Positions 1 to 14,242 of a stretch of DNA of 64,000 bases are shown piece by piece. This DNA comes from a virus: positions 17,649-81,648 of IMG/VR virus record IMGVR_UViG_3300020408_000003. The stretch is one strand, 5' to 3'. The notes beneath the pieces are model-generated. The model was not told the DNA's origin. It searched no databases and saw only the letters and a list, made by a program, of their open reading frames with translations. The translations under genes were made by a program, and so were the position numbers. How positions within the stretch are numbered: the first letter of the stretch is position 1; every line of letters starts with the position of its first letter.

Positions 1-60
1 TAATTATTATCTAACAACCAATAAACAGTTGATCGCGTCTACCAATTCCGCCACCCCAGA
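1..60 (-). tRNA. Partial atypical tRNA, anticodon GUU (Asn), apparent long variable arm; 3' half outside the window
   Basis: Minus strand reads TCTGGGG-TG-GCG GAATTGGTAGA CGC-G-ATCAA CTGTTTA TTGGT-TGTTAGATAATAATTA. D-arm with GG, 5-bp anticodon stem, 7-nt loop with U33 and GTT at 26..24. No T-loop in the following 16 nt. Confidence 0.75.
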
Positions 61-66
61 ATAATT

Positions 67-957
67 TTATGGTCTAGGATTACCGTATGATTGTGCAAAT
101 CCATGCATTACTCCACTTTTAGGATCAACAAATTCAGTAGTAAAATTTGCATTTACTCTTTTGTGCGCTTTTATCATTCGAGTCACACCAATTCCACCAC
201 CAACTCTTGGAAAAAATTCAAACTTTAAAAATTCATCAAGTTCTTTTTGCACTCTTTCTTTACCAAATAAATCATAAAGTAATTGAGCATACTGTCCATC
301 TGATATAGTTTCAAAAGTATTTCTCATTTGATCTACGTCTGTGCTTCTTTCAGCAGATCCAATTGTTTCCATACCATTTAAAATAACGTCAATCTTTTTA
401 CTTGTTTTGCCGTCTTCATTTCTTGTCATATTCCAAAAAGGTGATGTATGTTCTGGAAATTTAGTAATCATGCCCCAATCAATTTGTTTTTCATGGTAAT
501 TATCAAGTTCATCTGTATTAAATTCTAAACACCATTCTTCATATGTTTTTTCATCTAACTTAGGAAATCCCATATATTCACATAATTCGATTTCTAATTT
601 TTTTAGATCATCAATGTCACCTGGCATTTCAAATTCAAACATTGGAAAGATTGTTTCATGTCTTCCTTGTATTGGATTTGGTTCTTGTCTATAACTTGTT
701 GAAAGACAAAAATAACCTGGTGAATTCGGGCCACCGTGTGCTAGCAATTCGTGTTCTAACCACATTTGCCCAGTTTGGGGTAATGGCCAAACTTCTCCAT
801 CATAATTATAAATTCCTACTGTTTCAGGATCTTCACACGCTGCTAATATACTTAATCTATTTTGTGTATGTACTTCCCACCAACCTTTTTCCAAAAAAAA
901 GGACCGTAAACGGCCCACTGTAAAACTATAATCTTGTGAATTAATCAACTTTGTCAT
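67..957 (-). CDS. Class IIb aminoacyl-tRNA synthetase (Asn/Asp-like) catalytic-domain-only protein
   Basis: LPQTGQMWLE, motif 2 YRQE...RH..IFPMFEFE, ETIGSAER, motif 3 GGGIGVTR. At 296 aa it has no N-terminal OB-fold anticodon-binding domain. Confidence 0.8.
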   Translation of the reverse strand: MTKLINSQDYSFTVGRLRSFFLEKGWWEVHTQNRLSILAACEDPETVGIYNYDGEVWPLPQTGQMWLEHELLAHGGPNSPGYFCLSTSYRQEPNPIQGRHETIFPMFEFEMPGDIDDLKKLEIELCEYMGFPKLDEKTYEEWCLEFNTDELDNYHEKQIDWGMITKFPEHTSPFWNMTRNEDGKTSKKIDVILNGMETIGSAERSTDVDQMRNTFETISDGQYAQLLYDLFGKERVQKELDEFLKFEFFPRVGGGIGVTRMIKAHKRVNANFTTEFVDPKSGVMHGFAQSYGNPRP

Positions 958-978
958 ACTTGCTCCTTTTTTAAATTT

Positions 979-986
979 TATTTATA
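979..986 (-). promoter_or_regulatory. T4-type late promoter TATAAATA upstream of the aaRS-like gene
   Basis: Exact TATAAATA on the minus strand, followed by an AAGGAG SD and ATG at 957. Confidence 0.7.
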
Positions 987-991
987 CCTTA

Positions 992-1669
992 TTATTGTAT
1001 GTTTGGAAATATTTCTGAAATAACTTTAGCACATTCAACAGCAACAAGTCTATGTTCTTTCTGTGTTCCGTTAGCAGATCGTAATTCTATAAAATGAATC
1101 CAAGATCTTAAAGTTCCACTCATGTATAATCTACTTTTTGTTAATCCTTCTGGCAAAACAGCTCGAGCTTGTTCTTTTGCAATGCCATGTTCTACAGCCC
1201 ATTTATAGACTTCTCTACATTGATTTATAACTCCTGTTTGTCGTCTTTGCCATTCTGTAATCAACTCTTGCATTTTTTTATCATTCTGAATACTCGGATC
1301 ATTTTCTATTTCAATACTATTTTGTCTGTTCTTTTCATCTTGCAATCTACATTCACGAGTTGTAAAAGATAAATCGTCAGTAGGATCTGCATATCTTTGA
1401 CTAAACTCTTGAAATGAAAATGATCTGTGTCTGAGTATTTGTCTGGCAATGTCTCGAGTTGTTTCTATCTCCAAGCAAGCGCTAACCATTTCGAAGGGCG
1501 ACCAATGCTTGTTTTTGATAAGATAACGTAAGAGCTTTTCTGACGTTTTTTTGTTGGTTTGGTTCGATGGATTGGAAACACGGGCGCAATACGCAACGAG
1601 ATCTTTGGCATCTTCTACTCCCTCCATTTTCTCAAATGGTTTACTGTAACTTATAAGTTTTACGTTCAT
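992..1669 (-). CDS. thyX: FAD-dependent thymidylate synthase
   Basis: HWSPFE and the ThyX signature RHRSFSFQEFSQRY. Confidence 0.95.
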   Translation of the reverse strand: MNVKLISYSKPFEKMEGVEDAKDLVAYCARVSNPSNQTNKKTSEKLLRYLIKNKHWSPFEMVSACLEIETTRDIARQILRHRSFSFQEFSQRYADPTDDLSFTTRECRLQDEKNRQNSIEIENDPSIQNDKKMQELITEWQRRQTGVINQCREVYKWAVEHGIAKEQARAVLPEGLTKSRLYMSGTLRSWIHFIELRSANGTQKEHRLVAVECAKVISEIFPNIQ

Positions 1670-1914: not shown

Positions 1915-2565
1915 TTAACTTTCCTTTATCATTGTCCAAAAACCGGATCCTGTTTCAAAATCATGATGATCAAATTTACGTCTATGTTCTTTTAAAAAAC
2001 CATCAATAGCTCTAACTGTTCCTTGATGACTAGGATGATAATCATCGCCGCATATGTATTTTACATCTTTTAAAGCTCGTAATTCTAAAGTAACATTGAA
2101 GTAACTGTGTAATCCATCAATATAAACTAGATCCCAATTTGTATCTTTTTCTAATATTTCTAAACTTTTCTTTTGATGTATTATGTGTTTCATCATAAAT
2201 CGAGTCGGATGTTGAGACATTACCCAATTAAAAATTTTTCTTTGAGCATTATCGTTTTCTTCAACATACATCTTCATAAGATATTCAATCGTAGAATTTC
2301 CTTTATGTTTTTCAATCACTCCATTATAATGTTTTTGTTTTAAATAAGGTTCATTCATGTCAAAAGTATCACACGTATGAAGTTCAACATCTTTTGGTAA
2401 ATTATTTAATAATATCCAAGTAGAACATCCCCATGCACAACCGATTTCTAAGACTCTTCCACCAGACTTAACATTACGAGCAAATTCACCAAGAGCTTCT
2501 AAATGTTTTGGATTATTAAATCCTGGAATATCTAAATAGTGTTTCACTGGTTTTGGTATAATCAT
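1915..2565 (-). CDS. Class I SAM-dependent methyltransferase (Methyltransf_24-like)
   Basis: VLEIGCAWGCST motif I, DLVYIDGLH, ICGDDY. Confidence 0.85.
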   Translation of the reverse strand: MIIPKPVKHYLDIPGFNNPKHLEALGEFARNVKSGGRVLEIGCAWGCSTWILLNNLPKDVELHTCDTFDMNEPYLKQKHYNGVIEKHKGNSTIEYLMKMYVEENDNAQRKIFNWVMSQHPTRFMMKHIIHQKKSLEILEKDTNWDLVYIDGLHSYFNVTLELRALKDVKYICGDDYHPSHQGTVRAIDGFLKEHRRKFDHHDFETGSGFWTMIKES

Positions 2566-13811: not shown

Positions 13812-14242
13812 TATCTTTTCTTAATACCATCATTTATATTTCCATGATTCTTCTTATGGCTAGGACCTTTCCATCCATCTGGTTTAATTAAATCAGGTAA
13901 TCCTAAAGGATTTGGTCTTGACGGTTTAACACCGGGTTCTTTTGACATATTAGCTTTATGTACGCTATTCCACGCTTTATACGCATCAACGCCAAAAGCA
14001 TCTAAAGTACCGATGGCAACAACGCAAAGATCGATTAATCCATCAACTATCTCTTCAGGATTTTTATCTGTAAAAGCAGCTTTACGTGTTTCATCTAGTT
14101 CTTCTTTTAAAAAGTTAAGACGAAATTCTAAAAACTTTTCAAGCTTATGCAATTCGCCTTTATCTTTTGTTTTTTTAAACCAATCATGTACACCAAACTT
14201 AGCATGCATGTTATTAATATCTTTTACCCAATTTTTTGTCAT
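13811..14242 (-). CDS. MazG-like NTP pyrophosphohydrolase
   Basis: EELDE...EEIVDGLID acidic motifs, VHKANMSK, KPDGW. Confidence 0.8.
   Translation of the reverse strand: MTKNWVKDINNMHAKFGVHDWFKKTKDKGELHKLEKFLEFRLNFLKEELDETRKAAFTDKNPEEIVDGLIDLCVVAIGTLDAFGVDAYKAWNSVHKANMSKEPGVKPSRPNPLGLPDLIKPDGWKGPSHKKNHGNINDGIKKR

What the first reader, a model, noticed from the sequence alone, without database searches (positions are those of the whole stretch)
1..986. Anticodon-domain-less Asx synthetase co-transcribed with an atypical tRNA(GUU): candidate orthogonal phage aaRS/tRNA pair
Seen: a late promoter (979-986) precedes a 296-aa class IIb aaRS catalytic core with no OB-fold anticodon-binding domain, and a tRNA with an Asn anticodon starts 6 nt after its stop. 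Known: catalytic-core-only paralogues exist (archaeal-type AsnA/AsnRS2, EpmA) and are generally tRNA-independent; many alphaproteobacteria make Asn-tRNA indirectly via GatCAB; SerRS ignores the anticodon and reads a long variable arm. Inference: the enzyme may charge its own Asn tRNA through acceptor stem and variable arm, supplying Asn-tRNA for the Asn-rich late proteins or bypassing host tRNA-cleaving defences. The charged tRNA could instead donate an amino acid outside translation.
Basis: partly seen in the sequence, partly recalled or inferred. Interest (0 to 1): 0.88.

Follow-up and report, generated by a model that had tools for sequence, protein, structure and literature searches.

The report
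Phage mini-AsnRS with captive tRNA
A marine T4-like phage carries a cut-down look-alike of the asparagine tRNA-charging enzyme followed six bases later by an oddly built asparagine-type tRNA, a pair that travels together in many ocean phages and has never been tested at the bench.

Summary
Window 67-957 (-) encodes a 296-aa class IIb synthetase core with no anticodon-binding domain. A 110-nt tRNA(GUU) starts 6 nt after its stop; its T arm and acceptor 3' strand lie just left of the window.

- **Linkage, enzyme to tRNA:** in all 82 related phage loci that have DNA downstream of the gene, the tRNA follows it.
- **Linkage, tRNA to enzyme:** 95 of 96 loci found through the tRNA alone have the enzyme upstream.
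- **tRNA quality:** the cloverleaf covaries (17 of 20 pairs). U1-A72, G73 and G34-U35-U36 are invariant.
the variable arm ranges from 5 to about 43 nt, so it is not a conserved mark to be read. Position 37 is nearly always U, and position 33 is not always U.
- **Relatives without the tRNA:** enzymes with the same active-site residues occur in giant-virus bins, huge phages and bacteria. There they are often beside or fused to dihydroorotate dehydrogenase and UMP synthase.

Best reading (0.45): the enzyme loads Asn or Asp on its captive tRNA through the acceptor end. The main rival is a pyrimidine-linked metabolic enzyme that uses the tRNA as a carrier.

The scan noted this pair before on other DNA. 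I found no paper that describes it.

The parts
67..957 (-). Gene for a 296-aa stand-alone class IIb (AsnRS-like) catalytic core, called X in this report. Motif 2 (SYRQE...GRHETIFPMFEFE) and motif 3 (GGGIGVTR) are intact. Residues 270-296 are a low-confidence tail not shared with relatives.
   Evidence: (PHROG 29758, E 4.8e-134)
1..60 (-). First 60 nt of a 110-nt tRNA with anticodon GUU: acceptor 5' strand, 3-bp D stem, anticodon arm with loop CUGUUUA, and the start of a roughly 40-nt variable hairpin. The remaining 50 nt (rest of the variable arm, T arm, acceptor 3' strand, G73, then CCA) lie left of the window at G000:C1:17599-17648.
61..66 (-). 6-nt spacer between the stop codon of X and tRNA position 1
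   Evidence: gap 6
963..967 (-). Shine-Dalgarno-like AGGAG, 5 nt before the ATG of X
   Evidence: Read directly from the sequence
979..986 (-). TATAAATA, matching the T4 late-promoter consensus (consensus recalled), 21 nt before the ATG. It is not enriched in the window.
   Evidence: 11 found, 15.9 expected

Best explanation
This is a self-contained two-gene module of marine T4-like phages. It consists of a stand-alone AsnRS-type catalytic core (X) and a tRNA that exists only behind X.

Most likely mechanism: X activates asparagine (less likely aspartate) with ATP and transfers it to the 3' end of this tRNA. X has no anticodon-binding domain, so it would recognise only the acceptor end, namely the invariant U1-A72 pair and G73. 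The charged tRNA would then read AAY codons.

Shown: the fold and intact class II motifs; the absence of the OB domain; the tRNA cloverleaf with covariation; the invariant identity positions; and two-way genomic linkage.

Inferred: the amino acid, the transfer to the tRNA, the recognition mode, and the use in translation.
For: 1. Linkage from enzyme to tRNA. 84 loci carry the gene: own, P-SSM7, P-SSM2, P-SSM5 and 80 IMG/VR loci at 64-86% identity.
- 2 have no downstream DNA.
- 78 have the complete tRNA.
- 4 are cut 81-89 nt after the stop and show the tRNA's 5' part.
- The gap is 4-12 nt in 72 of the 78.

2. Linkage from tRNA to enzyme. A scan with a D-arm/anticodon-loop pattern fetched 118 loci. 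Of the 96 with at least 850 nt upstream, 95 have X upstream.

3. It is the only tRNA hit in P-SSM2 (252 kb), G006 (rated 100% complete) and G008 (95%).

4. Cloverleaf support: 99.9% of cells are paired, 17 of 20 pairs carry double changes, and 0 of 500 shuffles reach the observed values. U1-A72 is present in 55 of 55 distinct sequences. G73 and G34-U35-U36 are invariant.

5. X is nearest to true AsnRS.
- The family profile against PDB sequences gives AsnRS 2.3e-14, archaeal-type AspRS 3.5e-12, AS-AR 1.3e-5 and GenX 1e-4.
- VIA-align gives Z 26.6-25.6 for AsnRS at 22-23% identity, against 23.8 for AS-AR and 23.7 for GenX.
- The segment PQTGQMWLE aligns with human AsnRS TQSSQLYLE.

6. The neighbours of the pair change (gp23 14, UvsW 7, exonuclease 5, psbA 4, ThyX 4 of 131 flanking ORFs), so the pair moves as a unit.

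7. Asn makes up 7.0% of 17,876 codons in 46 window ORFs.

8. CCA is encoded after G73 in 34 of 78 tRNAs, including the window's.
Against: 1. Relatives at 44-62% identity keep every catalytic and pocket residue, conserved at 85% or more and identical in 75 linked and 67 unlinked enzymes. Most of them lack the tRNA.
- 74 of 82 divergent virus loci lack it.
- 69 of 76 genome loci have no tRNA(GUU) nearby. Six carry the odd tRNA and L241 has an ordinary tRNA-Asn.
- The best model hits elsewhere in two huge phages and one 294-kb virus record are tRNA-Leu genes.

2. Those relatives sit beside or are fused to DHODH and OPRT/OMP decarboxylase. The five genomes tested have a full AsnRS (5 of 5) and no ATCase above cut-off (0 of 5).

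3. The tRNA is an odd decoder. Position 37 is U in 74 of 77 parsed loops and position 33 is C or G in 9 of 77. By recall, a purine at 37 and U33 are near-universal in decoding tRNAs.

4. 80% of the window's Asn codons are AAT (1001 against 253 AAC). An unmodified G34 reads AAT only by wobble.

5. The linked enzymes are very acidic (median pI 4.68, net charge -19). They show no added basic surface compared with the unlinked ones.

6. No aminoacylation data exist.
Confidence: 0.45

Rival explanations
1. X is a metabolic enzyme that feeds the late pyrimidine pathway, making dihydroorotate or its precursor from an Asn/Asp-like substrate with ATP. In T4-like phages the captive tRNA(GUU) would be charged by host enzymes that read the anticodon, G73 and U1-A72 (AsnRS, or ND-AspRS plus GatCAB). 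It would serve X as substrate carrier or cofactor, not the ribosome.
For: - Fusions: DHO_dh + X (P0124) and X + OMPdecase (P0146).
- OMPdecase is an immediate neighbour in 7 of 150 ORFs flanking the divergent virus loci.
- DHO_dh is an immediate neighbour in 10 of 134 ORFs, and OMPdecase in 3, flanking the genome loci.
- X-UMPS-DHODH clusters occur in L095, L114, L174, L177, L178, L199, L216 and L222.
- In the five genomes tested: PyrB above cut-off 0 of 5 (controls 14 of 14), PyrC_multi 0 of 5, CarB 1 of 5, DHO_dh 5 of 5, AsnRS 5 of 5.
- The pocket is identical in linked and unlinked enzymes.
- The invariant tRNA positions match what class IIb synthetases and bacterial GatCAB read. U1-A72 as the GatCAB determinant comes from passages of PMC2330236.
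- Relaxed U33 and U37 would fit an RNA that is not selected for decoding.
Against: - T4-like phages carrying the pair have no DHO_dh: none in P-SSM7, P-SSM2 and G006, and only 35-38-bit hits in G007 and G008.
- No pyrimidine gene other than ThyX (4 of 131) flanks the pair.
- Nothing explains why the same reaction would need a tRNA only in phages.
- No chemistry is known for such a route. No paper on one was found.
- The MAGs may be incomplete; only G001 is a whole chromosome by its title.
Confidence: 0.25
2. X is a tRNA-independent asparagine synthetase, like archaeal AS-AR (Asp + NH3 + ATP gives Asn). The tRNA is an ordinary extra tRNA-Asn charged by the host. The two are linked only because both raise the supply of Asn-tRNA for an Asn-rich phage proteome.
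For: - AS-AR has the same core-only build and a close fold (Z 23.8, 239 residues aligned).
- Asn is 7.0% of codons.
- The tRNA carries the marks of a bacterial tRNA-Asn (U1-A72, G73, GUU).
Against: - The tRNA is found behind X in 95 of 96 loci reached through the tRNA. A host-charged decoder would not need X.
- The family profile scores AsnRS nine orders of magnitude better than AS-AR.
- U37 and the Leu-type body are unexplained.
- By passages of PMC2330236, known genomes with AsnA use AsnRS. Whether these hosts have AsnRS was not tested.
Confidence: 0.15
3. The tRNA-shaped RNA is a cis element (mRNA 3'-end processing or stabilising signal, or a recombination target for a mobile cassette) with no role for its anticodon or charging.
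For: - The pair changes place among genomes.
- Sullivan et al. 2010 remark that tRNA genes co-occur with non-syntenic regions (passage read, PMC3037559).
Against: - A processing signal would not need G34-U35-U36, G73 and U1-A72 to stay invariant while all four stems change by compensatory substitutions.
- G18-G19 and the T loop are also kept.
Confidence: 0.05

Closest known systems
Asparaginyl-tRNA synthetase, class IIb catalytic domain (PDB 8H53, 2XTI, 1X54, 9SH8)
   Same: Same fold over residues 1-270 (Z 25.6-26.6, 244-246 residues aligned, 20-23% identity). Class II motifs 2 and 3 are present. The QxxQxxLE segment aligns with AsnRS.
   Different: It has no N-terminal OB-fold anticodon-binding domain. 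It scores 23.3 bits against the 342.6-bit cut-off of TIGR00457. Its relatives occur in pyrimidine gene clusters.
Archaeal asparagine synthetase A (AS-AR; PDB 3P8T, 3REU, 1NNH)
   Same: A core-only paralogue of about 294 aa from the same superfamily, Z 23.2-23.8.
   Different: Sequence similarity is much weaker than to AsnRS (1.3e-5 against 2.3e-14). By recall, AS-AR is tRNA-independent. Here a tRNA is welded to the gene.
EpmA/GenX/PoxA (PDB 3A5Y, 3A5Z)
   Same: A core-only class IIb paralogue, Z 23.4-23.7.
   Different: It scores 15.2 bits against a cut-off of 264 for NF006828. By recall, EpmA is LysRS-derived and modifies EF-P.
GluQRS/YadB (recalled, not tested)
   Same: A synthetase core without an anticodon-binding domain that still acts on a tRNA.
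   Different: It is a class I GluRS paralogue that modifies queuosine in the anticodon of tRNA-Asp. It has no dedicated tRNA gene beside it.
Bacterial tRNA-Asn and type II tRNA-Leu
   Same: Asn-type marks: U1-A72, G73 and the GUU anticodon. Leu-type body: a 3-bp D stem and usually a long variable arm. The model built from these tRNAs scores genuine tRNA-Leu genes at 55-61 bits.
   Different: Position 37 is U instead of A. Position 33 is C or G in 9 of 77. The variable arm ranges from 5 to about 43 nt. The tRNA is found only behind X.

Membership tests
Class IIb aaRS catalytic domain (Pfam PF00152) | Matches the family model above its cut-off | tested here: met
   49.6 bits against a cut-off of 25, E 3.8e-13
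Class IIb aaRS catalytic domain (Pfam PF00152) | Class II motif 2 (RxE ... RH..F.E.E) and motif 3 (GxGxGxxR) intact | tested here: met
   R90, E92, R99, H100, E108, E110, G253, G255, G257 and R260 are conserved at 85% or more across 142 enzymes. The motif definitions are recalled.
Canonical AsnRS / AspRS | N-terminal OB-fold anticodon-binding domain | tested here: not met
   Only PF00152 was found at E <= 0.1. The model's residue 1-6 aligns to the start of the catalytic domain in AsnRS chains.
Canonical AsnRS (TIGR00457) and ND-AspRS (NF003483) | Score above the curated equivalog cut-off | tested here: not met
   23.3 against 342.6 bits, and 25.4 against 353 bits
Canonical AsnRS | Aminoacylates tRNA-Asn with Asn | not testable with these tools
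   Needs an enzyme assay
Archaeal asparagine synthetase A (AS-AR) | Core-only build with close fold | tested here: met
   Z 23.8, rmsd 2.7, 239 residues aligned to 3REU_B
Archaeal asparagine synthetase A (AS-AR) | tRNA-independent synthesis of Asn from Asp and ammonia | not testable with these tools
   Needs an enzyme assay. The profile E-value of 1.3e-5 is far weaker than for AsnRS.
EpmA (NF006828) | Score above the curated cut-off | tested here: not met
   15.2 against 264 bits
tRNA (Rfam RF00005) | Score above the gathering threshold over the full model | tested here: met
   41.1 bits against 29, model positions 1-71
tRNA (Rfam RF00005) | Cloverleaf kept by compensatory changes | tested here: met
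   17 of 20 pairs have double changes, 99.9% of cells are paired, and 0 of 500 shuffles reach this
Bacterial tRNA-Asn | GUU anticodon, G73 and U1-A72 | tested here: met
   Invariant in 55 distinct sequences. That these are Asn identity marks is recalled. U1-A72 as the GatCAB mark comes from PMC2330236.
Bacterial tRNA-Asn | A37 and a short (type I) variable loop | tested here: not met
   U37 in 74 of 77 loops. Total length is 75-113 nt, and only L030 has a 5-nt variable loop.
Orthogonal aaRS/tRNA pair | The enzyme charges only its own tRNA, and host enzymes do not charge it | not testable with these tools
   Only genomic co-occurrence was tested: 82 of 82 and 95 of 96

The most novel reading that the evidence does not exclude
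X belongs to an unrecognised ATP-dependent route to dihydroorotate that replaces carbamoyl-phosphate synthetase, ATCase and dihydroorotase in giant viruses and some bacteria. In ocean T4-like phages the same enzyme works on a captive, non-translational tRNA(GUU). Host enzymes would load that tRNA through its anticodon, G73 and U1-A72. It would thus be a tRNA-dependent feed into nucleotide synthesis.
Probability: 0.15. Interest if true: 0.95.

Novelty: new variant of a known kind. Interest (0 to 1): 0.78.

Why it matters
**If X charges its own tRNA,** this is a natural minimal synthetase/tRNA pair that works without reading the anticodon. It is abundant in the ocean: at least 596 IMG/VR stretches and 8000 scored protein clusters. 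It would show how phages privatise one step of decoding, and it could be a compact scaffold for genetic-code engineering.

**If the pyrimidine link is the true function,** the family marks an unknown way to make dihydroorotate, and the phage version would add a tRNA-dependent step to nucleotide metabolism.

**Either way,** the gene annotated "tRNA ligase" in the cultured phages P-SSM2, P-SSM5 and P-SSM7 can be tested directly.

Tried and rejected
**Variable arm as identity mark.** Rejected, because the arm runs from 5 to about 43 nt.

**Late promoter.** The motif is present but below chance expectation, so no claim is made.

**ARAGORN.** It finds no tRNA in the window, L001 or L002. It mis-parses several long variants as Glu, Ile, Asp, Lys or Arg. 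I relied on Rfam and my own model R1 instead.

**Huge phages LR756501 and LR756508.** No tRNA lies within 1.5 kb of X. Record-wide R1 hits are tRNA-Leu or other types, with no GUU type among those checked. G009 gave no match, but it is a bounded record. L101 is not held.

**Fused forms.** P0146 was not found in viral contigs, nor was P0157.

**Metatranscriptomes.**
- Three RNA runs hold small shares.
- Their contigs cover L001 1301-1509 (the tRNA 3' part plus downstream DNA) and scattered parts of the X gene.
- No contig bridges the stop-to-tRNA junction.
- These are contigs, and DNA carry-over is possible, so I draw no verdict on transcription or ends.

**Host Asn pathway.** I could not obtain a handle for a Prochlorococcus or SAR11 genome, so it is not tested. 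The 14 control genomes do not include them.

**L241.** An ordinary 73-nt tRNA-Asn lies 205 nt after X, behind a terminator-like hairpin. I treat it as possibly chance, being 1 of about 70 cellular loci.

**Gain of a basic RNA-binding surface in the linked clade.** Not seen.

**Papers.**
- Seven searches found no description of the pair or of a pyrimidine role.
- Sullivan et al. 2010 (PMC3037559): the passages I read list T4-GC194 "tRNA ligase" in one table row with entries in two genome columns (741 and 798 bp), without discussion.
- PMC7824862: the passages I read hold nothing on it.
- I did not ask for supplements. Those of PMC3037559 might say more.
- The AS-AR structure paper is not in the library. 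Statements about AS-AR function are recalled.
Full report
**What is there**

The window is bases 17649-81648 of an 81,648-base IMG/VR virus record that CheckV rates 40% complete.

On the minus strand, 67..957 is a 296-aa ORF, called X here.
- Its only Pfam hit is the class II D/K/N synthetase core: PF00152, E 3.8e-13, residues 16-262.
- It matches PHROG 29758 (unknown function) at E 4.8e-134.
- It falls far below the curated cut-offs of AsnRS, ND-AspRS and EpmA.

The minus strand after the stop reads as a tRNA 5' half that runs off the window. Fetching the DNA to the left gives a complete 110-nt tRNA.
- It scores 41.1 bits on Rfam tRNA against a gathering score of 29.
- The acceptor stem has 7 bp beginning with U1-A72, and the discriminator is G73.
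- The D stem has 3 bp.
- The anticodon loop is CUGUUUA, which gives anticodon GUU and U at position 37.
- The variable region is a hairpin of about 40 nt.
- The T arm is normal, and CCA is encoded after G73.
- ARAGORN misses it.

TATAAATA lies 21 nt before the ATG. The window holds 11 copies against 15.9 expected, so it proves nothing. An AGGAG lies 5 nt before the ATG.

**Is the pairing conserved?**

Homologues at 69-70% identity in the cultured Prochlorococcus myophages P-SSM7, P-SSM2 and P-SSM5 are annotated "tRNA ligase". Each is followed 7-9 nt later by an 85-86-nt tRNA-Asn(GUU) with the same loop, U1-A72 and G73.

IMG/VR holds at least 596 stretches that encode relatives. The best 80 were kept, at 64-86% identity. 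Together with the own locus and the three cultured phages, that makes 84 loci.
- 2 end at the gene.
- 4 end 81-89 nt after it and show the tRNA's 5' part.
- 78 hold the whole tRNA.
- The gap is 4-12 nt in 72 of the 78. The tRNA overlaps the ORF end in 3, and the gap is 88-305 nt in 3.

The reverse test used a D-arm/anticodon-loop pattern and no protein information. It fetched 118 loci.
- 95 of the 96 with at least 850 nt upstream have X there. The exception is L348.
- 14 of the 22 shorter ones show a partial X.
- Some of these contigs overlap the first set.

This tRNA is the only tRNA hit in P-SSM2, G006 (100% complete), G008 (95% complete) and the own fragment. P-SSM7 has three others.

The neighbours of the pair vary: gp23, UvsW, exonuclease, psbA, ThyX and lipase.

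**The tRNA**

The 55 distinct sequences align well.
- All four stems covary: 99.9% of cells are paired, 17 of 20 pairs carry double changes, and 0 of 500 shuffles reach the observed values. Slid controls pair at only 42-57%.
- The invariant positions are U1, U8, G9, A14, A15, G18, G19, A21, G34, U35, U36, A72 and G73.

Several features are unusual.
- Position 37 is U in 74 of 77 parsed loops and A in 3.
- Position 33 is C in 8 and G in 1.
- Total length runs from 75 to 113 nt, because the variable arm runs from 5 to about 43 nt.

A covariance model of these tRNAs (R1) scores genuine tRNA-Leu genes at 55-61 bits. This fits a Leu-type body carrying Asn-type marks.

**The enzyme**

The AF2 model is confident (pLDDT 91.8).
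- Foldseek and VIA-align place AsnRS catalytic domains first (Z 25.6-26.6, 20-23% identity).
- Archaeal and eukaryotic AspRS follow (Z up to 25.6), then AS-AR (23.8), GenX (23.7) and LysRS.
- The family profile gives the same order on sequence: AsnRS 2.3e-14, AspRS 3.5e-12, AS-AR 1.3e-5, GenX 1e-4.

Motifs 2 and 3 are intact. The segment PQTGQMWLE aligns with AsnRS TQSSQLYLE. By recall, AspRS has a lysine in this segment.

**The wider family changes the picture**

A full-library search finds 674 representative clusters at E <= 1e-3, and nearly all of the best 150 listed are short, core-only-sized proteins. Two are fusions: DHODH + X (P0124) and X + OMP decarboxylase (P0146).

A scan seeded with divergent members gave 80 loci, many from giant-virus (GVMAG) bins and from virus contigs of up to 508 kb.
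- With two huge-phage loci added, only 8 of 82 have the odd tRNA downstream.
- Among 150 of their 154 immediate neighbour ORFs, OMPdecase appears 7 times.
- L095 and L114 hold DHODH, an OPRT-OMPdecase fusion and X together.

In the species-genome collection, 76 loci carry X.
- The six closest, at 66-71% identity, carry the odd tRNA. They are probably phage contigs binned into marine MAGs.
- The other 70 come from Weeksellaceae, Chitinophagales, Aureispira, Chlamydiae, Patescibacteria, DPANN archaea, Babeliales and Myxococcota. They lack the odd tRNA.
- DHO_dh is an immediate neighbour 10 times among 134 ORFs.
- X-UMPS-DHODH clusters occur in at least eight of these loci.

Five of those genomes were searched as wholes.

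| Family | Genomes above cut-off |
|---|---|
| ATCase (PyrB) | 0 of 5 (controls 14 of 14) |
| PyrC_multi | 0 of 5 |
| CarB | 1 of 5 |
| DHO_dh | 5 of 5 |
| Full-length AsnRS | 5 of 5 |

In a tree of 142 distinct enzymes, the tRNA-linked ones form one large clade, with two linked outliers. Every catalytic and pocket residue is the same in the 75 linked and the 67 unlinked enzymes. The linked ones are the more acidic group. The T4-like phages that carry the pair lack DHODH.

**Reading**

Two facts pull in different directions.
- The tRNA is captive to X: it is almost never found without it, and it is often the phage's only tRNA. This argues that X acts on it. For an AsnRS-like core, the simplest act is aminoacylation through the acceptor end. 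That would explain the invariant U1-A72 and G73, while decoding would explain the invariant GUU.
- The unchanged pocket in relatives that sit in pyrimidine operons, in genomes that already have AsnRS, argues that X has a metabolic reaction of its own. The odd positions 33 and 37 fit an RNA read by proteins more than by the ribosome.

I put 0.45 on the charging pair, 0.25 on the metabolic-carrier reading, 0.15 on an AsnA-like enzyme with an ordinary decoder, and 0.05 on a cis element. The rest is for readings I have not thought of.

**Novelty**

The cultured-phage genes have been annotated since 2005-2010. In the passages I read, Sullivan et al. 2010 only list the gene in a table. Seven literature searches found no description of the pair or of the pyrimidine link.

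Earlier notes of this scan describe the same pair on other DNA, and two of them describe the pyrimidine link. I re-tested linkage and the pyrimidine context here. I did not test the claim that the hosts lack AsnRS.

Noticed in passing
L002 14272-14661 (-), equal to G000:C1:14272-14661, about 3 kb left of the window: The phage record carries a two-piece (permuted) alphaproteobacterial-type tmRNA: Rfam alpha_tmRNA 81.9 bits and tmRNA_permuted 85.2 bits. This hints at an alphaproteobacterial host.
   Followed up: no
window 992-1669 (-) and 1915-2565 (-): ThyX (Thy1, E 2.6e-45) lies directly upstream of X, followed by a Methyltransf_24 protein. ThyX is the upstream neighbour only in the window's closest relatives (4 of 131 flanking ORFs).
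   Followed up: partly
L095 1746-4825; L114 2359-5782; L216 4001-6967; L222 4001-7247: X-UMPS-DHODH gene clusters occur in giant-virus bins and in bacterial MAGs. The five X-carrying bacterial genomes searched (one of them holding the L216 cluster) show no ATCase above cut-off. This suggests an unrecognised entry into the late pyrimidine pathway.
   Followed up: partly
P0162, P0168, P0176, P0254 (alignment A1): Some family members have lost the motif 2 arginine and have a degenerate motif 3. They may be non-catalytic.
   Followed up: no
L348 (reverse strand) 14014-14097: This is the single odd tRNA(GUU) found with no X in 14 kb upstream. The contig ends 107 nt after it.
   Followed up: partly
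L168-L171, L175, L176: Contigs binned as Poseidoniia archaea, Legionellales, Flavobacteriaceae, Bacteroidetes and Neomarinimicrobiota carry the phage-type X plus the odd tRNA. They are probably phage DNA inside marine MAGs. L176 lies on a 335-kb contig.
   Followed up: no
L241 3965-5129: In one bacterial MAG an ordinary 73-nt tRNA-Asn (loop CUGUUAA, U1-A72, G73) lies 205 nt after X, behind a terminator-like hairpin.
   Followed up: partly
L100 1057-2286; L090 1457-2863: In giant-virus bins a glutamine-synthetase-like gene (L100) and a DHFR-thymidylate synthase fusion (L090) are the nearest upstream ORFs of X.
   Followed up: no
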